Source of the DNA: a virus | Taxonomy: Duplodnaviria > Heunggongvirae > Uroviricota > Caudoviricetes | IMG/VR virus record: IMGVR_UViG_2778261314_000004 | DNA: 32,919 bases | Reading direction: 5' to 3' (one strand) | Part shown: piece after piece, positions 1,054-32,700 of the stretch | Layout: every line of letters begins with the position of its first letter | Numbering within the stretch: position 1 is the first letter of the stretch | The notes under the pieces: generated by a model | What the model saw: only the letters and a program-made list of their open reading frames with translations | Database searches by the model: none | Told to the model about the DNA's origin: nothing | Program-made: the position numbers and the translations under genes

Positions 1054-1131
1054 AAAAAATGCCCTCCAGTGGAGAGCATTTTTACTGTATGTATAACCAG
1101 TGTCAATGTATGATGCTTGAGGTTACATACA

Positions 1132-1515
1132 TCATAAGTACCGATATGATTGCGGGGCCGTTATGTTATCACCTAATGAACTTAGATGAAGCGGTTGATC
1201 ATAGATTTTTAGATTGCCAATTTCTATAGCAAAGGCTTTTTCTTTGCTATGAAAATATGAGTCAAAAAATTGTTTGCTGATACCTGCGTATTGGCTTGTT
1301 TTTTCCCATACAATACTTGGCTTGTCTTCTATAACATCTGCAATGTCAAATTCAGCAACAACTTTACCGACAGGCATTGTTGAATAAATAACCACAGATT
1401 TTACATCCGGTTTTTTGAAAATTCCTTTTCGGAATTCAAATTTCTTTGTTCCATTAAGGATTTTTTCTACATGCTCTGGGTTAATTGACAATAATACTTT
1501 CATTGACGCCACCAA
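1132..1515 (-). CDS. Standalone ASCH-domain (PUA-like fold) protein, ~123-127 aa; alternative start at 1503
   Basis: Translation MKVLLSINPEHVEKILNGTKKFEFRKG...VVIYSTMPVGKVVAEFDIADV...AFAIEIGNLKIYDQP follows the pattern I recall for ASCH family proteins. AT-rich codon usage. Overlaps the upstream gene by 23-35 nt. Confidence 0.7.
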   Translation of the reverse strand: MVASMKVLLSINPEHVEKILNGTKKFEFRKGIFKKPDVKSVVIYSTMPVGKVVAEFDIADVIEDKPSIVWEKTSQYAGISKQFFDSYFHSKEKAFAIEIGNLKIYDQPLHLSSLGDNITAPQSYRYL

Positions 1516-2551
1516 GTTTAATAATGCTATTAAACTGTTCGTTTGTTAACTTCATGATCCCCCAGTAAGCTCGCGGGGATAATCCTACTTCAGAAATAAG
1601 TTTAGCACGATTTAGTCTTTTGGGCAAAGCAAGGTTATATGTAAAGCTTATAATATATGGGTATTTTTTTGTTCTATAAAAACTTTTAAGCTCAGATTCT
1701 GTAAAAACAGAATATCTAGAACAGTAATTTAGAAATTCTTTCTCTGTAACGAAAGAGTTTATATTTCTAACTTTTTCTACTACACATAAAGAAGTAGCAA
1801 CAGAACGGTAATATGCAGGCCCTTGATTATCGGATGTTCGGTATATAACGATTATATCGTTTGGCTTCATTAATTCAACATCTGACATGCCACAAATATA
1901 TACTTTTCTAATGCTATTTGCATATGATACATCAGCAACAACATCTGGTGACTCTGTAATTAATTTTGAGTCAGGGAATAAACGAGTATGAAATACGGGG
2001 TATATTGAAAGCAAGAATTTATTTTCACTGCCTCTGTTATTAATAAATGGATAATCTGACAGTATATCGCCCGTAAGAGCATTACTATTCATTTCTTTTA
2101 TTAGTACTCGCTCTACACCATTTTCAGATTCTTTTACTCCAATATCTATAAAGCCATAGATTTTGAATAGTCTAATTAAGTAGTCATGTTTTTCAAAAAC
2201 AGTCACATATATATTGTTAGCATTATTATCTAGAGCGTGATCGAATATTTTTTTTAAAAATCGTTGACCACGAAGAGTTCCTTTTGGATTAAATTTAAAT
2301 GTTCCAACTTTTAGATGAATACCATCAGGAATATTTGGTTTTGTATCTTCAATGATACCTACTTCTGTTTTTAGATACAAAAAACCATCAATTTTATTTT
2401 GTTCATCATAAAGGACATATGCATAATCATTTGATTTACATTTAGAATGGAACCAATCAATAAACCCATGAGCATAATCGGATTTTAAAGAGTCAAAAAA
2501 AACATCAGAAAAATCTACTTGATTAAAAGGTATGTATTTTAAGTTTTCCAT
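1481..2551 (-). CDS. Two-domain protein: N-terminal GNAT-like acetyltransferase fold (degenerate), C-terminal ASCH/PUA-like domain, 356 aa
   Basis: Long ORF in the AT-rich island. N-terminal half has GNAT-like secondary-structure rhythm (HLKVGTFKFNPKGTLRGQRFLKKIFDHALDNNANNIYVTVFE...LFKIYGFIDIG). C-terminal half resembles the ASCH pattern (IIVIYRTSD...SLCVVEKVRNI...FTESELKSFY...YIISFTYNLALPKRL). Start codon lies 2 nt after the stop of the upstream gene. Domain calls are by eye only. Confidence 0.55.
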   Translation of the reverse strand: MENLKYIPFNQVDFSDVFFDSLKSDYAHGFIDWFHSKCKSNDYAYVLYDEQNKIDGFLYLKTEVGIIEDTKPNIPDGIHLKVGTFKFNPKGTLRGQRFLKKIFDHALDNNANNIYVTVFEKHDYLIRLFKIYGFIDIGVKESENGVERVLIKEMNSNALTGDILSDYPFINNRGSENKFLLSIYPVFHTRLFPDSKLITESPDVVADVSYANSIRKVYICGMSDVELMKPNDIIVIYRTSDNQGPAYYRSVATSLCVVEKVRNINSFVTEKEFLNYCSRYSVFTESELKSFYRTKKYPYIISFTYNLALPKRLNRAKLISEVGLSPRAYWGIMKLTNEQFNSIIKLGGVNESIIVN

Positions 2552-2553
2552 GT

Positions 2554-3336
2554 TTACAATCCTATTTTAAAATCACATGATAAGCAAATTGATTTAGTTT
2601 TAGATATGACGGCGAGTGTTTTCCCCGGAGTTTGACAATTAGTACAAACATTCCAATTTTTCGGTTTTCCATCAATCTTATATATGTTGGCTAAAATATC
2701 ATCTAAAGGAAAAAATGTTTTCATCATGTCTATAATGCTTGCTGCATAGTTTTTCTTTGCCTCGACTAATTTTTGTTCAGGCATGTTTTTATCATTTATC
2801 AAGCAATGAACCAGGTTATTAAGAGGCTCTTGATATATCTCCTCTCGAAAAATTAGAAATGCACTTAAAAAGTCTTTACGTATTTCTTTATTATTACTTT
2901 TACCTAAGTGAATTACTTTATTTCTTTCTTTGCGCAAAATATCATAAATTTCATTAAAGCGCGGTGAAAGATTTCGCCCACTGATACTTTGTGCTATTCT
3001 ATGTAGCTCGGTTGCGTCTAATGTTGAACATTCGAAAAATGATTTGTTTTTATAGCAGTCTTTTACTTCTTTTAAAAGTAAATAAACACTATGCTCAGCA
3101 ATTATAGACTTTAGATATATTTCAGCAGAATTAAAGAGTATTACTAAGCCAGATTGAAAGAAACTCTCTTTTTCGGATATTAAGCGTTTCAGTCGTTGTT
3201 CTTCTGTTTCAGGTTGAGCTGGGGCTTGCAATAACTCAATGTCAGAATAAAAGTGTAAGTAGAATGTTTTAATGAAAAACTCAAGGTTCCTTTTGGCATA
3301 AAGAAGCATCTCTTCATTGTTAGGAAGGTCTGTCAT
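2554..3336 (-). CDS. HEPN-like protein (R-N-x3-H motif) with C-terminal CxxC...CxxC zinc ribbon, 260 aa
   Basis: ORF start ATG directly abuts the cI stop codon (TAA-ATG at 3334-3339) with AAGGA Shine-Dalgarno inside the cI 3' end. Contains LRKERNKVIHLG, matching the Rx4-6H HEPN catalytic motif. C-terminus has CTNCQ...CLSCDF. AT-rich. Confidence 0.5.
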   Translation of the reverse strand: MTDLPNNEEMLLYAKRNLEFFIKTFYLHFYSDIELLQAPAQPETEEQRLKRLISEKESFFQSGLVILFNSAEIYLKSIIAEHSVYLLLKEVKDCYKNKSFFECSTLDATELHRIAQSISGRNLSPRFNEIYDILRKERNKVIHLGKSNNKEIRKDFLSAFLIFREEIYQEPLNNLVHCLINDKNMPEQKLVEAKKNYAASIIDMMKTFFPLDDILANIYKIDGKPKNWNVCTNCQTPGKTLAVISKTKSICLSCDFKIGL

Positions 3337-4293
3337 TTAAATATCCTTATATATACCAAAACATTTTGCTATTACATTAATATCCGCTAATAGACATTCA
3401 AAAGTTGTACTTTCATTAGATACTTTTACTTTTGCAATTGGAATTCTGGTTAGATCTCTAACACTAAATTTTCCTTCGATTTCAACTAACCATTTTCCAT
3501 CGGTTACTTCATCAAATGCTTTGTCTGCAAGATATACATTTCCTTCATCTACTATAGATATGGGGTTTTTCACCTTGCTGGGTAACATGGTTTTATCAAA
3601 AGGGAGATAATTTGTATCAAACAACATACCATTTATAACTTTTTTCCGTGTGATAGCAATAATATCGCTCTTAGCGTCTTCAAAGACGGGACCATTACCG
3701 GTTGTTAGCCACATTAATGAAGCTCCGGTTTCAAGTGCGCACTGGATGATCCAATCAGCTGGAAAGGTATCTCTCATGTAACGATTGGCTAATGTGCTTT
3801 TTGAAACACCAATGTGATCCGCTAGAGCTTGCCTTGTCTTAAATCCATAGGCGATAACTATTCGCTCGATTGCCGCTTTTCCTCCTTGATTAACCTCAAT
3901 GAGGCTCTCGTTCTTTCGGTGAGTATTGTTCTCATTTGGGGATTTTGTGTCTAAAGTGAGAGAATGAATCTCCTTACCATCTTTATGGTGGTTCTGTTCT
4001 GTATTATGTGTGACAGCCTCTACTGTGTTATCGGTACCAAATGCCAACCATTCAACCGACACGCCAGTTTCCATGCTGCAGATTATGACCCAGTCGGCAG
4101 GGAAGGTATCACGAGCATATCTGTTCGCCATTGTGCTTTGGGATATCCCTAAGTGGTTACAGAATGCTTGACGTGAAGTGAAGCCATAAGCTTTCAAAAT
4201 TCGGTCAATGACCTGTTGCCCTCCACGATTCTGCATGATTACAGTTTTCATTGCATCATCAACATGGCGAAATGTGATTTTGTGTGTTGACAT
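3337..4293 (-). CDS. cI: 186-type CI immunity repressor with tandemly duplicated N-terminal HTH domain, 318 aa
   Basis: Two successive copies of an HTH module (RILKAYGFTSRQAFCNHLGISQSTMANRYARDTFPADWVIICSMETGVSVEWLAFG and RIVIAYGFKTRQALADHIGVSKSTLANRYMRDTFPADWIIQCALETGASLMWLTTG) followed by a C-terminal domain. Lies divergent from an apl/cII pair, as in phage 186. Confidence 0.8.
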   Translation of the reverse strand: MSTHKITFRHVDDAMKTVIMQNRGGQQVIDRILKAYGFTSRQAFCNHLGISQSTMANRYARDTFPADWVIICSMETGVSVEWLAFGTDNTVEAVTHNTEQNHHKDGKEIHSLTLDTKSPNENNTHRKNESLIEVNQGGKAAIERIVIAYGFKTRQALADHIGVSKSTLANRYMRDTFPADWIIQCALETGASLMWLTTGNGPVFEDAKSDIIAITRKKVINGMLFDTNYLPFDKTMLPSKVKNPISIVDEGNVYLADKAFDEVTDGKWLVEIEGKFSVRDLTRIPIAKVKVSNESTTFECLLADINVIAKCFGIYKDI

Positions 4294-4381
4294 ATCCGTT
4301 TTGCGATCCTATTCTCCGATTTGTGAAGTTGAAGTCACGATTAAAACCTGCTTATCACAAGACAATAGGAGATGTTGCATC
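4294..4381. promoter_or_regulatory. Lysis-lysogeny switch region (expected pR/pL promoters and operators) between divergent cI and apl
   Basis: 88-bp intergenic region between the divergent repressor and apl starts. Contains a short direct repeat tgaagttgaagt and AT-rich promoter-like hexamers. Individual promoters were not resolved. Confidence 0.4.
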
Positions 4382-4603
4382 ATGACCCCTAACATTTCAA
4401 TAACTCTGAATACGCCACACGTCACAATTGAGCGTTATAGCGAACTTACTGGTCTTTCGATCGACACAATCAACGATATGCTGGCTGACGGTCGCATCCC
4501 TCGGCATCGCCTTCGGAAAGACAAGAAAAGAGAAAAGGTGATGATCAACCTTGCTGCCCTTACCGTTGATGCACTTACTGATTGCAATGTTGTATTCAAC
4601 TAG
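4382..4603 (+). CDS. apl: Apl/Cox-like excisionase and transcriptional regulator (small HTH protein), 73 aa
   Basis: First rightward gene of the early operon, immediately upstream of cII. HTH-like segment [26 protein letters not shown]. Start taken at the internal ATG at 4382 of the longer tool ORF. Confidence 0.6.
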
Positions 4604-4635
4604 TTCCATTTTGGGATACATCAGGGGTGTCGACC

Positions 4636-5145
4636 ATGTTTGATTACCAAGTTTCCAAACATCCACATTTTGATGAAGCCTGTCGTGCATTCGCATTGCG
4701 CCACAACCTAGTGCAACTGGCAGAACGTGCTGGCATGAATGTGCAGATTCTGCGGAACAAGCTGAACCCAGCTCAACCTCATTTATTAACCGCACCAGAA
4801 ATCTGGCTGCTTACCGATCTGACTGAAGATTCAACGCTGGTAGATGGTTTTCTGGCTCAGATTCACTGCCTGCCATGCGTACCGATTAATGAGGTGGCAA
4901 AAGAGAAACTGCCACATTACGTCATGAGTGCAACCGCAGAGATCGGGCGTGTTGCTGCAGGTGCGGTATCTGGCGATGTAAAAACCAGTGCAGGTCGTCG
5001 TGATGCTATCAGCAGCATTAACTCTGTAACACGACTGATGGCGTTGGCTGCTGTTTCATTGCAGGCCCGTTTACAGGCTAACCCTGCGATGGCGAGTGCA
5101 GTTGATACCGTGACTGGCCTCGGTGCTTCATTCGGTTTGCTGTGA
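4636..5145 (+). CDS. cII: CII-like lysogeny establishment regulator (phage 186 CII family), 169 aa
   Basis: Translation from the internal ATG ([45 protein letters not shown]...) matches my recollection of 186 CII in sequence and length. Position after apl. Confidence 0.8.
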
Positions 5146-9701: not shown

Positions 9702-9795
9702 TTACGCGGGTTAACAATTCGTGCTCTTAATAATACCAGGCATATCAGGCTGATGAACGTAAAAAAACGTTTTACATCAGTAAGATTATTATATA

Positions 9796-9811
9796 CTGTA
9801 AATATAAACAG
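9796..9811 (+). promoter_or_regulatory. LexA box (SOS operator) CTGTAAATATAAACAG overlapping a sigma70-like promoter
   Basis: Perfect CTGT-N8-ACAG palindrome with AT-rich spacer. TTTACA (-35-like, 9771-9776) and TATACT (-10-like, 9792-9797) are adjacent. Lies upstream of the 62-aa ORF and the dinI-like gene. Confidence 0.6.
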
Positions 9812-9854
9812 TGGTTATACATACAGTATTGCGTGTGGTGTCATAGGAGGAAAG

Positions 9855-10043
9855 ATGCAGGACTATTTTTTGGAGTCTTTGAAGCTCCAGCGCATTGATT
9901 TTTTTCTTAAGCTTGTAGCGGCTAGTGAGTGTAGTGATGAAGAGAAGGGGCTGGCTCTGCAGTGGGTTTCTGAATTGACTGATGAACTCATGGCAAAAAT
10001 CAGAACCCACGAATACAACCGCTCAATGGATGTCATCAGCTGA
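9855..10043 (+). CDS. Hypothetical 62-aa protein, first gene of the LexA-box-controlled operon (candidate antirepressor/SOS effector)
   Basis: ATG at 9855 preceded by GGAGG. AT-rich. Immediately downstream of the LexA box. Confidence 0.5.
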   Translation: MQDYFLESLKLQRIDFFLKLVAASECSDEEKGLALQWVSELTDELMAKIRTHEYNRSMDVIS

Positions 10044-10053
10044 GGTGACTTTT

Positions 10054-10287
10054 ATGCGCATTGAAATAATGATCGATAAAGAGCAGAAGATTAGCCAGTC
10101 TACCCTGGACGCCCTTGAATCCGAGCTTTACCGCAATCTGCGCCCCCTGTATCCCAAAACGGTAATTCGCATTCGCAAAGGTAGCTCTAACGGTGTGGAA
10201 CTAACCGGACTGCAACTGGACGAAGAAAGAAAACAAGTGATGAAAATTATGCAGAAGGTGTGGGAAGACGACAGCTGGCTGCATTAA
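10054..10287 (+). CDS. dinI: DinI-like protein (DNA-damage-inducible protein I family), 77 aa
   Basis: MRIEIMIDKEQKIS...LDALESELYRNL...KIMQKVWEDDSW follows the DinI pattern (MRIEV...DAL..EL.R...E.W..W) and length. Confidence 0.8.
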   Translation: MRIEIMIDKEQKISQSTLDALESELYRNLRPLYPKTVIRIRKGSSNGVELTGLQLDEERKQVMKIMQKVWEDDSWLH

Positions 10288-10422
10288 GAAACGTTGCTGG
10301 CGTCTGAACTTGCTTCTGGCGTCAGCAAGGTTGAACAACGAGCCCTTGCGAGGCGTTAACTCTGTAGTGCATGTCTATGCCGCATGAGATCGCATGATCG
10401 TTTGAGGATCGTTTTTGCTAAG

Positions 10423-10599: not shown

Positions 10600-11145
10600 A
10601 TGGACGTTATAACTGGAGTTGCAGAGTTTTTTCGAAAAGTACCTGCAGCATTTCTTGTGGCTATTACATGTGTTTTAGGTCTTATACTTTTTCTGCCAGA
10701 CTCTTTGGCAGTAAAAGTGGCTGTTGATGGCTTTCGTAATGAGTATAGGATTTTTATTGGACCTGCATTTTTACTGTCTGTATCTTATTTAGTTGCAAGA
10801 GTCTATCTCTCTTTCTATGACTTACTTGGTGAAAGGCAGGCTAAGAAGGTACGCACTTCCTACCTTGAGAAGCTAACAGCAGAAGAAAAAGGATATTTAA
10901 AGTCTTATATTACCGAAGGTGTTAATTCACTTATGTGTGGGCCTGAGGATGGGGTCATGGGGGGACTTGTGGCTAAGGGGATTACTTATAGAGCCACCAG
11001 TGTTGGGGATATGATCTACGGTTTTGCTTTCAACTTACAGCCATGGGCGCGTGAACATTTAGAGAAAAATAGTCATTTATTAGATGGGGCTATTGGGCGT
11101 GCAATGACTCCAAGAGAAAAATTAAACTTTAGATTGGGACGCTAA
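10600..11145 (+). CDS. Membrane protein, 181 aa, with N-terminal transmembrane segments; possible superinfection-exclusion (SieB-like) cargo protein
   Basis: Hydrophobic stretches AAFLVAITCVLGLILFL and GPAFLLSVSYLVARVYL. Lower G+C than flanking phage genes. Located between the cos-like site and Q, where P2-like phages carry accessory genes. Family assignment is tentative. Confidence 0.45.
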   Translation: MDVITGVAEFFRKVPAAFLVAITCVLGLILFLPDSLAVKVAVDGFRNEYRIFIGPAFLLSVSYLVARVYLSFYDLLGERQAKKVRTSYLEKLTAEEKGYLKSYITEGVNSLMCGPEDGVMGGLVAKGITYRATSVGDMIYGFAFNLQPWAREHLEKNSHLLDGAIGRAMTPREKLNFRLGR

Positions 11146-32610: not shown

Positions 32611-32700
32611 TTCTTCGCAATGGAGAACTTTTAAGTTTGCAAAATGGAATAATGCGGTATCATTATTGTGAATTTAGCAAAAATGGGGAGAACTCGAAAA

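What the first reader, a model, noticed from the sequence alone, without database searches (positions are those of the whole stretch)
3337..4293. Immunity repressor with tandemly duplicated N-terminal DNA-binding domain
The cI ORF encodes two consecutive copies of the CI-type HTH module (about 60 aa each, roughly 60 % identical to each other by eye), joined by an Asn/Thr/His-rich low-complexity linker, followed by one C-terminal oligomerisation-type domain. Phage 186 CI, as I recall, is about 192 aa with a single N-terminal domain. No stop codon or obvious internal start separates the copies. This could change operator spacing or immunity specificity, or it could be a fusion of two ancestral genes.
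Basis: partly seen in the sequence, partly recalled or inferred. Interest (0 to 1): 0.55.

Follow-up and report, generated by a model that had tools for sequence, protein, structure and literature searches.

The report
Two-headed phage 186-type CI repressor
The prophage's immunity repressor really does carry two DNA-binding heads on one chain; it is a widespread natural chimera of two repressor lineages that seems never to have been studied, and it may read two kinds of operator.

Summary
ORF 3337-4293 (- strand, 318 aa) has two Phage_CI_repr HTH domains (aa 21-88 and 134-201; 53% identical, E 3e-32). A disordered 45-aa linker joins them, and one 186-type C-terminal domain follows.

It is not an assembly artefact. 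The locus is at least 99% identical in 28 complete E. coli genomes. The same architecture occurs in 47 of the 120 closest protein clusters across Enterobacterales, all labelled only "repressor protein CI".

It is a chimera, not a recent duplication. The switch region, a 20-aa leader and copy 1 match one single-headed CI lineage (A). Copy 2, the C-terminal domain and the downstream genes match another (B).

Both heads appear to be under purifying selection (pN/pS 0.12 and 0.21; linker 0.73). They differ at recognition-helix position 2 (Gln versus Lys).

The lytic promoter region carries three lineage-A-type repeats (CGWWWTGYGAW) and no lineage-B palindromes. Copy 1 therefore most likely represses pR.

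The target of copy 2 is unresolved. Candidates are a relic B-type site inside the gene, or the operators of lineage-B phages (cross-immunity).

Verdict: a new variant of a known kind, of moderate interest. I found no paper describing it.

The parts
3337..4293 (-). cI gene, 318 codons plus stop: leader, NTD copy 1, linker, NTD copy 2, hinge, CTD
   Evidence: ORF. Pfam 2x PF07022 + PF16452. 186 CI (2fjr_A) aligns to aa 141-318, E 3.4e-31.
4234..4293 (-). Leader, codons 1-20 (MSTHKITFRHVDDAMKTVIM). The ATG is the complement of the CAT in TTGACAT, the pR -35.
   Evidence: Same ATG/-35 overlap in single-headed relatives. Synonymous divergence is only 0.30 here against about 0.70 elsewhere, so the DNA itself is constrained. 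The leader is shared with lineage-A singles.
4030..4233 (-). NTD copy 1 (aa 21-88), lineage-A type, recognition helix SQSTMANRYAR
   Evidence: Pfam. Five-helix fold, pLDDT 84-91. pN/pS 0.115. 72-80% mean identity to lineage-A singles. Gln at recognition-helix position 2.
3895..4029 (-). Linker (aa 89-133), N/T/E/H-rich, predicted disordered; contains the remnant of the lineage-B N-terminus
   Evidence: pLDDT below 50 for residues 89-134. pN/pS 0.73. Length 34-50 aa in 46 orthologous clusters. Remnant DTKSPNE versus MSTSKYPNE.
3691..3894 (-). NTD copy 2 (aa 134-201), lineage-B type, recognition helix SKSTLANRYMR
   Evidence: Pfam best stretch 140-203. pLDDT 87-92. pN/pS 0.21. 85% identical to the NTD of the single-headed CI of E. 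coli phage vB_EcoM-813R9. Lys at recognition-helix position 2.
3340..3654 (-). C-terminal domain (aa 214-318), 186 CI CTD fold (dimer/wheel-forming domain in 186)
   Evidence: PF16452 E 6.7e-31. Foldseek match to 2fkd_A, TM 0.92, rmsd 1.4 A over 109 columns. pLDDT about 94.
4287..4315 (+). Candidate lytic promoter pR: -35 TTGACA (4287-4292), 17-nt spacer, -10 TATTCT (4310-4315)
   Evidence: Consensus scan, 10/12 matches. Same position and near-identical sequence in all related loci. Corresponds to the annotated pR of 186.
4268..4278 (+). Candidate CI operator O1, CGAAATGTGAT, upstream of the -35 and inside cI codons 6-9
   Evidence: One of only three exact matches to CGWWWTGYGAW in the 32.9-kb window. 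Conserved at -25 in all 8 two-headed loci and in lineage-A singles. Absent (fewer than two such repeats) in all 66 loci whose first NTD has Lys.
4297..4307 (+). Candidate operator O2, CGTTTTGCGAT, in the pR spacer
   Evidence: Weaker evidence: a similar spacer sequence also occurs in lineage-B phages.
4317..4327 (+). Candidate operator O3, CGATTTGTGAA, at about the pR start site
   Evidence: Conserved at +24 in all two-headed loci and in the lineage-A single L084.
3930..3940 (-). Remnant of the lineage-B operator (CCCAAATGAGA) inside the linker-coding DNA, about 355 bp from the cI start. A possible distal site for copy 2.
   Evidence: Only exact match in the window. Identical to the site in codons 6-9 of lineage-B cI genes. 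Kept in 4 of 8 two-headed loci and decayed in the other 4.
4382..4603 (+). apl/cox-like gene, first gene of the rightward lytic operon
   Evidence: ORF and position. Annotated 'MerR family transcriptional regulator' or 'Cox protein' in relatives. No Pfam hit.
4636..5145 (+). cII-like establishment activator
   Evidence: Pfam Phage_CP76, E 3.2e-42.

Best explanation
This is a genuine, expressed variant of the phage 186-type CI immunity repressor. Each chain carries two different helix-turn-helix heads: NTD-A, a roughly 45-aa flexible tether, NTD-B, then the 186-type C-terminal domain.

**Origin (shown by sequence comparison).** An in-frame fusion or recombination placed a cassette in front of an essentially complete lineage-B cI gene. 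The cassette comprises the pR operators, the leader and the NTD of lineage A.

**Mechanism (inferred).**
- The C-terminal domain dimerises and probably forms higher oligomers, as in 186. Each dimer would then display four heads.
- Copy 1 binds the three same-strand CGWWWTGYGAW repeats. These lie just upstream of the -35, in the spacer, and at the start site of pR. Binding there shuts off the lytic operon (apl, cII, replication) and so maintains lysogeny.
- Copy 2 remains a working DNA-binding domain of a second specificity class. It has Lys instead of Gln at recognition-helix position 2, and its cognate sites are CCCAAWTGGG-type palindromes.
- Copy 2 has no such site at pR. It most likely acts at a distance or on other DNA. 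That could be the remnant B-type site at 3930-3940 (analogous to FL of 186), or the pR operators of superinfecting lineage-B phages.
- Induction is probably through an SOS-controlled antirepressor, as in 186, not by self-cleavage.
For: **Reality and architecture**
- The domain calls and the internal repeat are strong.
- The AF2 model shows two five-helix domains and a CTD at pLDDT 85-95, with linker 89-134 below 50 and pTM 0.39.
- The CTD superposes on 186 CI CTD 2fkd_A at TM 0.92.
- The locus is at least 99% identical in 28 complete E. coli genomes.
- 47 of the 120 nearest clusters have two NTDs, and the linker is always in frame despite lengths of 34-50 aa.

**Chimeric origin**
- Copy 1 is 58% identical to copy 2 on average, but 70-74% (up to 88%) identical to five single-headed proteins that share its 20-aa leader.
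- Copy 2 averages 73.5% identity to the other singles.
- DNA 4327-4046 matches lineage-A locus L084 at 74%. DNA 3873-338 is colinear with lineage-B locus L086 at 78%.
- A remnant of the B N-terminus lies in the linker.

**Both heads functional**
- pN/pS is 0.115 for copy 1 and 0.21 for copy 2, with synonymous sites near saturation. The linker is 0.73.
- Recognition-helix residues are invariant or nearly so in both copies.
- Copy 2 is no more diverged among two-headed proteins (76%) than NTDs are among singles (75%).

**Copy 1 reads pR**
- The three repeats are the only exact matches in the window.
- They sit at -25, +4 and +24 relative to the cI start in all 8 two-headed loci, and L084 has the same three. 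Two other lineage-A singles (L067, L068) keep those at -25 and +4.
- Among loci whose first NTD has Gln, 10 of 13 have at least two such repeats, against 0 of 66 for Lys. B-type palindromes at pR occur in 0 of 13 and 7 of 66 respectively.
- Lineage-B phages carry palindromes at the same two places flanking pR.

**186-like context**
- int, cI, apl, cII, fil and replication genes are in 186 order.
- Tandem LexA-box-like sites lie upstream of a DinI-like ORF.
Against: - No binding experiment exists, and the operator assignments rest on co-inheritance and position.
- The motif CGWWWTGYGAW was defined after looking at these sequences.
- O2 is also present in lineage-B phages, so it may be only promoter spacer.
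- Copy 1 is physically next to pR, so their co-inheritance is partly expected from linkage alone.
- For copy 2 no convincing target exists in its own genome. Matches to CCCAWWTGGG in the window are no more frequent than chance.
- The remnant site has decayed in 4 of 8 two-headed loci.
- The B-like site between apl and cII travels with the apl-cII module whatever the CI type.
- Conservation of copy 2 could partly be borrowed from single-headed genes through frequent recombination. For 11 of 46 copy-2 domains the nearest neighbour is a single.
- The oligomeric state is inferred from fold similarity only. The CTD is the fastest-evolving folded part (pN 0.42).
- pL was not identified by the consensus scan.
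Confidence: 0.6

Rival explanations
1. Dual-immunity repressor. Copy 1 controls the phage's own pR. The main job of copy 2 is to bind the CCCAAWTGGG palindromes that flank pR of lineage-B phages. The lysogen would then be immune to two immunity groups, while the phage itself answers only to lineage-A-type repressors.
For: - Copy 2 is 85% identical to the NTD of the single-headed CI of E. coli phage vB_EcoM-813R9, with an almost identical recognition helix. That phage has a perfect GTACCCAATTGGGTAC just downstream of the -10 of its pR.
- Its backbone is 96% identical to this window over 67% of the first 12 kb, so such phages circulate in the same hosts.
- Copy 2 has no cognate site at its own pR.
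- Copy 2 shows no relaxation of constraint.
- The tandem architecture recurs with at least four different first heads.
Against: - This is purely inferential; no immunity data exist.
- The recognition helix is very similar across many presumably heteroimmune lineages, so specificity may lie elsewhere.
- Repression of a foreign pR would need copy-2 pairs held in the right geometry, which cannot be tested here.
Confidence: 0.3
2. Copy 2 is mainly a passenger or structural spacer. The lineage-A cassette (operators plus copy 1) re-programmed the immunity of a lineage-B phage. Copy 2 persists only because it holds the C-terminal domain in place, gives non-specific DNA contacts for wrapping, or is the docking site of the antirepressor.
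For: - No enrichment of B-type sites in the window.
- The remnant site is lost in half of the two-headed loci.
- Copy-2/CTD modules seem to be exchanged often with single-headed genes, which could keep copy 2 looking conserved.
- A collapsed single-headed recombinant exists: P0084 has a copy1/copy2 hybrid NTD on a CTD like that of P0012.
Against: - pN/pS is 0.21 for copy 2 against 0.73 for the adjacent linker.
- Base-contacting helix-3 residues S164, S166, T167, R171 and Y172 are invariant across 45 two-headed proteins.
- Among the 47 two-headed clusters none has a partial second head; the only damaged members found are truncated in the first head (P0104) or in the CTD (P0049).
Confidence: 0.2
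3. Single-chain pseudo-dimer. Copies 1 and 2 of one chain sit side by side on a composite asymmetric operator with one A-type and one B-type half-site. This would resemble engineered single-chain repressors or monomeric two-domain mycobacteriophage repressors.
For: - Two heads joined by a flexible tether is the layout of such proteins.
- A natural monomeric two-domain immunity repressor is known in mycobacteriophages (PMC9283540, found; title and abstract only).
Against: - No B-type half-site (CCCAA or TTGGG) lies next to any of the A-type repeats in 4260-4345.
- The pR operator layout is the same as in single-headed lineage-A phages.
- The protein keeps an oligomerisation domain.
- AF2 gives no defined packing between the heads, pTM 0.39.
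Confidence: 0.07
4. Artefact or mis-annotation: an assembly duplication, two genes separated by an undetected frameshift, or translation starting only after the first head.
For: NCBI annotation starts the gene 19 codons downstream of Met1, and no strong Shine-Dalgarno sequence precedes either start (read directly).
Against: - The sequence is identical in many independent complete genomes.
- The two copies are only 53% identical, so this is not an assembly repeat.
- The frame is open in 47 diverged clusters with variable linkers.
- Copy 1 has pN/pS 0.115 with saturated synonymous sites, so it is translated.
- There is no in-frame start codon between codons 84 and 140.
Confidence: 0.02

Closest known systems
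Coliphage 186 CI immunity repressor (192 aa; PDB 2FJR, CTD 2FKD)
   Same: - Same two Pfam families; aa 141-318 align to 186 CI at E 3.4e-31.
- CTD fold TM 0.92.
- Same gene order: int, cI, then apl-cII on the opposite strand.
- Repressor gene abutting pR.
- 186 CI itself uses two kinds of site. Its annotated pR site region contains TCTCTCAATTGGGAGA, and its annotated FL and FR sites read TTCAC-N5-GTGAA. These resemble the B-type and A-type motifs seen here.
   Different: - 186 has one head per chain; this protein has two of different classes plus a 45-aa tether.
- Here the cI ATG overlaps the pR -35, whereas in 186 it lies 15 bp to the left.
- The candidate pR operators are three same-strand repeats, where 186 has the sites annotated at its pR.
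- Wheel formation is untested.
Single-headed lineage-B CI of close relatives (E. coli phage vB_EcoM-813R9, 198 aa; Enterobacter roggenkampii prophage P0035/L086)
   Same: - Copy 2 plus the CTD is 75% identical to P0035.
- The NTD of 813R9 is 85% identical to copy 2.
- Downstream cargo and integrase are colinear at 78%.
- The phage backbone is 96% identical.
   Different: - These have no copy 1, leader or tether.
- Their pR is flanked by CCCAAWTGGG palindromes and lacks the CGWWWTGYGAW repeats.
Single-headed lineage-A CI (Salmonella enterica subsp. diarizonae prophage P0107/L084, 208 aa; nearest sequenced phage Klebsiella phage ST13-OXA48phi12.1 at 61%)
   Same: - Same leader MSTxxITxRH and copy-1-type NTD, 81% identical in the NTD.
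- Same three repeats at -25, +4 and +24 around pR.
- DNA 74% identical over 4327-4046.
   Different: - A single head attached directly to a different CTD lineage.
- No copy 2.
Engineered or natural repressors with two DNA-binding modules in one chain: the lambda-186 hybrid repressor (PDB 7JVT) and the monomeric two-domain mycobacteriophage repressor (PMC9283540)
   Same: - They show that heterologous heads can be mounted on the 186 CTD (7JVT entry title).
- They show that one chain can carry two DNA-reading modules (abstract).
   Different: - 7JVT has a single, swapped head.
- The mycobacteriophage protein is a monomer reading one asymmetric site with unlike domains.
- Here two homologous heads are combined with an oligomerisation domain, and no composite site is seen.

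Membership tests
186-type CI immunity repressor (Phage_CI_repr + Phage_CI_C) | N-terminal CI-type helix-turn-helix domain (PF07022) | tested here: met
   E 9.6e-58, present twice. Five-helix fold predicted for both copies.
186-type CI immunity repressor (Phage_CI_repr + Phage_CI_C) | C-terminal 186 CI domain (PF16452) with the fold of 2FKD | tested here: met
   E 6.7e-31. Foldseek TM 0.92, rmsd 1.4 A to 2fkd_A.
186-type CI immunity repressor (Phage_CI_repr + Phage_CI_C) | One DNA-binding domain per chain, as in 186 CI | tested here: not met
   Two domains at aa 21-88 and 134-201. This is the feature that makes it a variant.
186-type CI immunity repressor (Phage_CI_repr + Phage_CI_C) | First gene of the leftward lysogenic operon, next to int, facing the apl-cII lytic operon of a P2/186-like phage | tested here: met
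   Gene order in the window and in the identical E. coli locus. Compare the 186 annotation.
186-type CI immunity repressor (Phage_CI_repr + Phage_CI_C) | Operators overlapping pR, with a face-to-face pL promoter | tested here: inconclusive
   A pR-like promoter and three conserved repeats over it were found. pL was not found by the scan. Read by eye (not a tool result), a weak TTGAAA-17-CAACAT lies on the - strand at 4400-4372.
186-type CI immunity repressor (Phage_CI_repr + Phage_CI_C) | Dimers assembling into a 14-mer wheel that wraps DNA | not testable with these tools
   Only a monomer model was possible. The CTD fold is conserved, but the sequence is 30% identical to 186 and fast-evolving.
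186-type CI immunity repressor (Phage_CI_repr + Phage_CI_C) | Inactivation by an SOS-controlled antirepressor (Tum), not by RecA-mediated cleavage | tested here: inconclusive
   Tandem LexA-box-like sites at 9794-9828 lie upstream of a 62-aa ORF and a DinI-like ORF. No functional test was possible.
Single-chain or monomeric two-module repressors | Acts as a monomer on a composite asymmetric site read by both modules | tested here: not met
   An oligomerisation domain is present. No B-type half-site adjoins the A-type repeats at pR.

The most novel reading that the evidence does not exclude
The two heads have divided the work, or widened the reach, of a wheel-forming repressor. Copy 1 holds the phage's own lytic promoter. 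Copy 2, on the same oligomer, recognises the palindromic operators of a second immunity group. One repressor gene would then give immunity against two families of P2/186-like phages, and the [operator + head] cassette would act as a portable module that re-programmes immunity. A natural dual-specificity immunity repressor of this kind has, to my knowledge, not been described.
Probability: 0.3. Interest if true: 0.7.

Novelty: new variant of a known kind. Interest (0 to 1): 0.5.

Why it matters
Phage 186 CI is a textbook case of a repressor that works as a wheel of seven dimers wrapping DNA, and of one HTH reading two kinds of site. A natural, widespread form with two different heads per subunit bears on several points.

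- **Valency.** If it forms the same wheel, it would carry 28 heads where 186 CI carries 14. It asks how valency and tether length affect wrapping and cooperativity.
- **Immunity evolution.** It offers a ready-made system for studying how immunity specificity evolves by module shuffling, as opposed to point mutation.
- **Phage competition.** If copy 2 gives cross-immunity, it would be a new competitive strategy among P2-like prophages, which are very common in E. coli and Klebsiella clinical isolates.
- **Annotation.** These genes are all labelled plain "repressor CI". At least one pipeline start codon is probably wrong, and immunity-group predictions that assume one head per repressor would mis-assign them.

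Tried and rejected
1. **Assembly artefact, frameshift or internal start.** Rejected.

2. **Recent intragenic tandem duplication.** Rejected. The copies belong to different lineages, each with single-headed counterparts.

3. **A B-type site for copy 2 between apl and cII (GTTCCATTTTGGGATA, 4604-4619; the position of FR in 186).** Rejected as copy-2-specific. The same sequence is present in phages with single lineage-A CI, single lineage-B CI and class-iv two-headed CI. It travels with the apl-cII module.

4. **CI sites upstream of the late activator gene B/ogr (32611-32700).** No information. That region is identical in phages with different CI types.

5. **Whole-window enrichment of B-type or 186 FL/FR-type motifs.** None above the shuffled expectation.

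6. **The inverted repeat GTGAAGTTGAAGTCAC (4323-4338) as an operator.** Probably not one unit. The right arm is shared with lineage-B phage L085 and so belongs to the apl-side module.

7. **Linker derived from the former upstream (promoter) region of the B gene.** No detectable similarity beyond about codon 3-5 of the B gene. The weak resemblance of 'KDGKEIHSLTL' to the lineage-A hinge 'EDGKDERAVTL' was seen by eye only and is not claimed.

8. **Literature.** Six full-text searches and one paper on P2-like regulatory genes (PMC3448106) gave no description of a two-headed 186-type CI. The library lacks most subscription-journal papers, so this absence is not proof.

9. **Genome collection scan.** It gave mostly single-headed loci, because it holds one genome per species. 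Two-headed loci had to be fetched one by one.
Full report
**1. What is in the sequence**

The - strand ORF 3337-4293 encodes 318 aa. Pfam finds the 186-type CI HTH domain (PF07022) in two stretches, with whole-protein E 9.6e-58. It finds one 186 CI C-terminal domain (PF16452) at aa 214-312.

Aligning the N-terminal 115 aa against the rest pairs aa 16-92 with aa 129-205. The match is 53% identical, ungapped, E 3e-32.

The solved 186 CI (2fjr_A, 189 residues) aligns only to aa 141-318, that is, to copy 2 plus the C-terminal domain.

An AlphaFold2 model built on 45 orthologues gives three features:
- two confident five-helix domains, with helices spanning 13-85 and 138-198;
- a confident beta domain at 211-315;
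- a linker at 89-134 with pLDDT below 50, and overall pTM 0.39, so the domains behave as beads on a string.

The C-terminal domain superposes on the 186 CI CTD at TM 0.92 and rmsd 1.4 A. The linker is rich in Asn, Thr, Glu and His.

**2. Real or artefact**

- The 1.5 kb around the gene is at least 99% identical, full length, in 28 complete E. coli chromosomes from different hosts and countries.
- In those genomes it lies in a 186/P2-like prophage next to rcdA/ybjJ, and the gene is annotated "phage repressor protein CI".
- A search of 5.8 billion proteins finds 791 relatives. Of the 120 best 90%-identity clusters, 47 have two N-terminal domains and 73 have one.
- The two-headed ones come from E. 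coli, Klebsiella, Citrobacter, Enterobacter, Salmonella, Kosakonia and Edwardsiella, and from deposited Klebsiella phage records.
- Among them the linker varies from 34 to 50 aa but is always in frame.
- In a library clustered at 50% identity the whole domain family has only 201 representatives. Of the best 150, 34 match the head more than once. In my re-scan, 22 have two complete heads.

So this is a common, conserved architecture. It is not a sequencing error and not a one-off.

**3. Start codon**

In single-headed relatives and in this window, the first ATG of cI is the complement of the CAT in TTGACAT. That sequence is the -35 hexamer of the rightward promoter. This explains why these proteins begin Met-Ser-Thr.

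NCBI's pipeline starts the gene at Met20. However, several orthologues have Ile or Leu at position 20, so Met1 is the conserved start.

Codons 1-20 have unusually low synonymous divergence, pS 0.30 against about 0.70 elsewhere. This fits the DNA there doubling as promoter and operator.

There is no in-frame ATG, GTG or TTG between codons 84 and 140. A protein with copy 2 alone therefore cannot be made from a canonical start.

**4. Origin**

The two heads are not recent copies of each other.

- Across 46 two-headed clusters, copy 1 and copy 2 of the same protein are 44-66% identical. Copy 1 domains are 71% identical to one another, and copy 2 domains 76%.
- Copy 2 resembles the heads of ordinary single-headed CIs, mean 73.5% and up to 93%.
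- Copy 1 resembles a small separate set of single-headed CIs of 206-208 aa, for example from Salmonella enterica subsp. diarizonae. These share its 20-aa leader MSTxxITxRH. I call these lineages A and B.

At the DNA level the gene is a mosaic:
- Window 4327-4046 (switch, leader, copy 1) matches the lineage-A locus at 74%.
- Window 3873-338 (copy 2 from about aa 141, C-terminal domain, three cargo genes, integrase) is colinear at 78% with an Enterobacter prophage whose CI is single-headed.
- The linker DNA matches neither.

Lineage-B proteins begin MSTSKYPNE. The same motif survives just before copy 2 in the two-headed proteins, as KFPIE, KFPNE or, in the window, DTKSPNE.

The simplest reading is an in-frame junction of [pR operators + leader + head A] to an almost complete lineage-B cI.

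The first head falls into at least four classes, each closest to a different single-headed lineage. The arrangement has therefore arisen or been re-assorted several times. A collapsed single-headed recombinant also exists (P0084).

**5. Are both heads functional?**

Seven two-headed genes for which I had DNA are 52-60% identical to the window in protein. Segment statistics:

| Segment | pN/pS | pN |
|---|---|---|
| Copy 1 | 0.115 | 0.08 |
| Copy 2 | 0.21 | 0.15 |
| Linker | 0.73 | 0.51 |
| C-terminal domain | 0.65 | 0.42 |

Synonymous sites are near saturation throughout (pS about 0.64-0.74, except 0.30 in the leader).

Helix-3 residues are invariant or nearly so in both heads: S51, S53, T54, R58, R61 in copy 1, and S164, S166, T167, R171, Y172 in copy 2.

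The heads differ consistently at helix-3 position 2. It is Gln in copy 1 and lineage A (76-100%), and Lys in copy 2 and the other singles (96-99%). They also differ at several other positions.

One caveat applies. Copy-2/CTD modules appear to be exchanged with single-headed genes. Part of copy 2's conservation could therefore have been acquired outside the two-headed context.

**6. Operators**

Phage 186's record annotates a CI-binding region at pR containing TCTCTCAATTGGGAGA. It also annotates two flanking CI sites, FL and FR, reading TTCAC-N5-GTGAA.

Lineage-B phages have CCCAAWTGGG-type palindromes in two places:
- just upstream of the -35, inside codons 5-9 (KYPNE);
- just downstream of the -10.

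The window has no such palindrome at pR. It has three same-strand copies of CGWWWTGYGAW at 4268-4278, 4297-4307 and 4317-4327. These are the only exact matches in 32.9 kb. They lie upstream of the -35, in the spacer and at about +1.

- All eight two-headed loci have the repeats at the same offsets, and lineage-A single L084 has all three. Two other lineage-A singles (L067, L068) keep the first two.
- Among 82 loci, at least two such repeats occur in 10 of 13 whose first head has Gln, and in 0 of 66 with Lys.
- A second, independent two-headed class (Edwardsiella) likewise has a pR region resembling that of singles with its first-head type.

This is inference from co-inheritance and position, not a binding result. 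The middle repeat is weak evidence because lineage-B phages have a similar spacer.

**7. What copy 2 binds is not settled**

- The window keeps an exact CCCAAATGAGA at 3930-3940, in the linker-coding DNA. It is identical to the lineage-B operator half that lies in codons 6-9 of B-type cI.
- That site is about 355 bp from the cI start, comparable to FL of 186, which lies inside cI about 285 bp from pR.
- It has decayed in four of the eight two-headed loci.
- B-type motifs are not enriched in the window.
- A B-like sequence between apl and cII proved independent of CI type.
- The region upstream of the late activator gene is identical whatever the CI type.

An E. coli phage with a 96%-identical backbone, vB_EcoM-813R9, has a single-headed lineage-B CI. 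Its head is 85% identical to copy 2, and its pR carries a perfect GTACCCAATTGGGTAC. This makes cross-immunity a concrete, testable possibility.

**8. Comparison with what is known**

By domain content, fold and genomic position this is a 186-type CI. It fails only the feature "one head per chain".

It does not behave like a single-chain monomeric repressor. It keeps the oligomerisation domain and shows no composite operator.

I found no paper describing this architecture, but the searchable library is incomplete. I therefore rate it a new variant of a known kind.

It is of moderate interest as it stands. It would be of considerably more interest if the second head turns out to widen the immunity range.

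Noticed in passing
window 1132-2551 (- strand), plus 2554-3336: The genes between cI and int match PADLOC candidate defence system PDC-M11: the 356-aa protein matches PDC-M11A (E 2.4e-130) and the ASCH-domain protein matches PDC-M11B (E 4.9e-48). The 260-aa protein next to cI has only a weak DUF3644 hit. Relatives carry other cargo at this spot: a retron in Klebsiella phage 4LV2017, DUF4747 in L091, an AAA/SMC-like pair in L096. It behaves like a defence hotspot.
   Followed up: partly
window 9794-10288: Two overlapping LexA-box-like sites (TACTGTAAATATAAACAGTG, 1 mismatch, and CAGTGGTTATACATACAGTA) lie upstream of a 62-aa ORF (9856-10044) and a DinI-like ORF (10055-10288; Pfam DinI E 1.3e-22). 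This is probably the counterpart of the SOS-controlled Tum antirepressor module of 186, here split into two ORFs.
   Followed up: partly
window 1083-1102: Another LexA-box-like sequence (TACTGTATGTATAACCAGTG, 2 mismatches) lies between the integrase start (1053) and the ASCH gene. Its meaning is unknown.
   Followed up: no
window 4234-4293: The cI start codon is embedded in the pR -35 (TTGACAT), and codons 6-9 overlap candidate operator O1. The leader's synonymous sites are constrained (pS 0.30). RefSeq starts the gene at Met20, which is probably 19 codons too short.
   Followed up: yes
window 3340-3654 and orthologues: Among two-headed CIs the C-terminal (oligomerisation) domain evolves much faster (pN 0.42) than either DNA-binding head (0.08 and 0.15). 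This is the reverse of what one expects if immunity diversifies through the DNA-binding domain. It may reflect avoidance of mixed oligomers or of antirepressors.
   Followed up: no
proteins P0230 (834 aa), P0260 (460 aa), P0258 and P0262 (about 345 aa): In the 50%-identity representative library some proteins match the CI head 3 to 5 times, so longer arrays of this HTH may exist. I did not examine them.
   Followed up: no
P0084 (208 aa); L005 3001-3690 (Dryocola sp. BD586): P0084 looks like a two-headed CI collapsed back to one head by recombination between copies 1 and 2. In L005 the two-headed gene is truncated to 229 aa and lacks most of the C-terminal domain, so it is possibly a pseudogene.
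   Followed up: partly
window 4604-4619: GTTCCATTTTGGGATA lies between the apl stop and the cII start, the position of FR in 186. It is conserved in 18 of 92 related loci regardless of repressor type. Its function is unknown; it may be part of the pE or cII control region.
   Followed up: partly
L097 2380-2500 (Kosakonia prophage, class-ii two-headed CI): Its pR -35 is flanked by two near-identical direct repeats, AAAATGTGAGAATAAAT and ATTTTGTGAGAATAAAT. Direct TGTGA-type repeats at pR therefore seem general in this family.
   Followed up: no
window 10600-11145: A SieB-like superinfection exclusion gene (Pfam SieB, E 4.5e-25) lies downstream of the replication genes.
   Followed up: no
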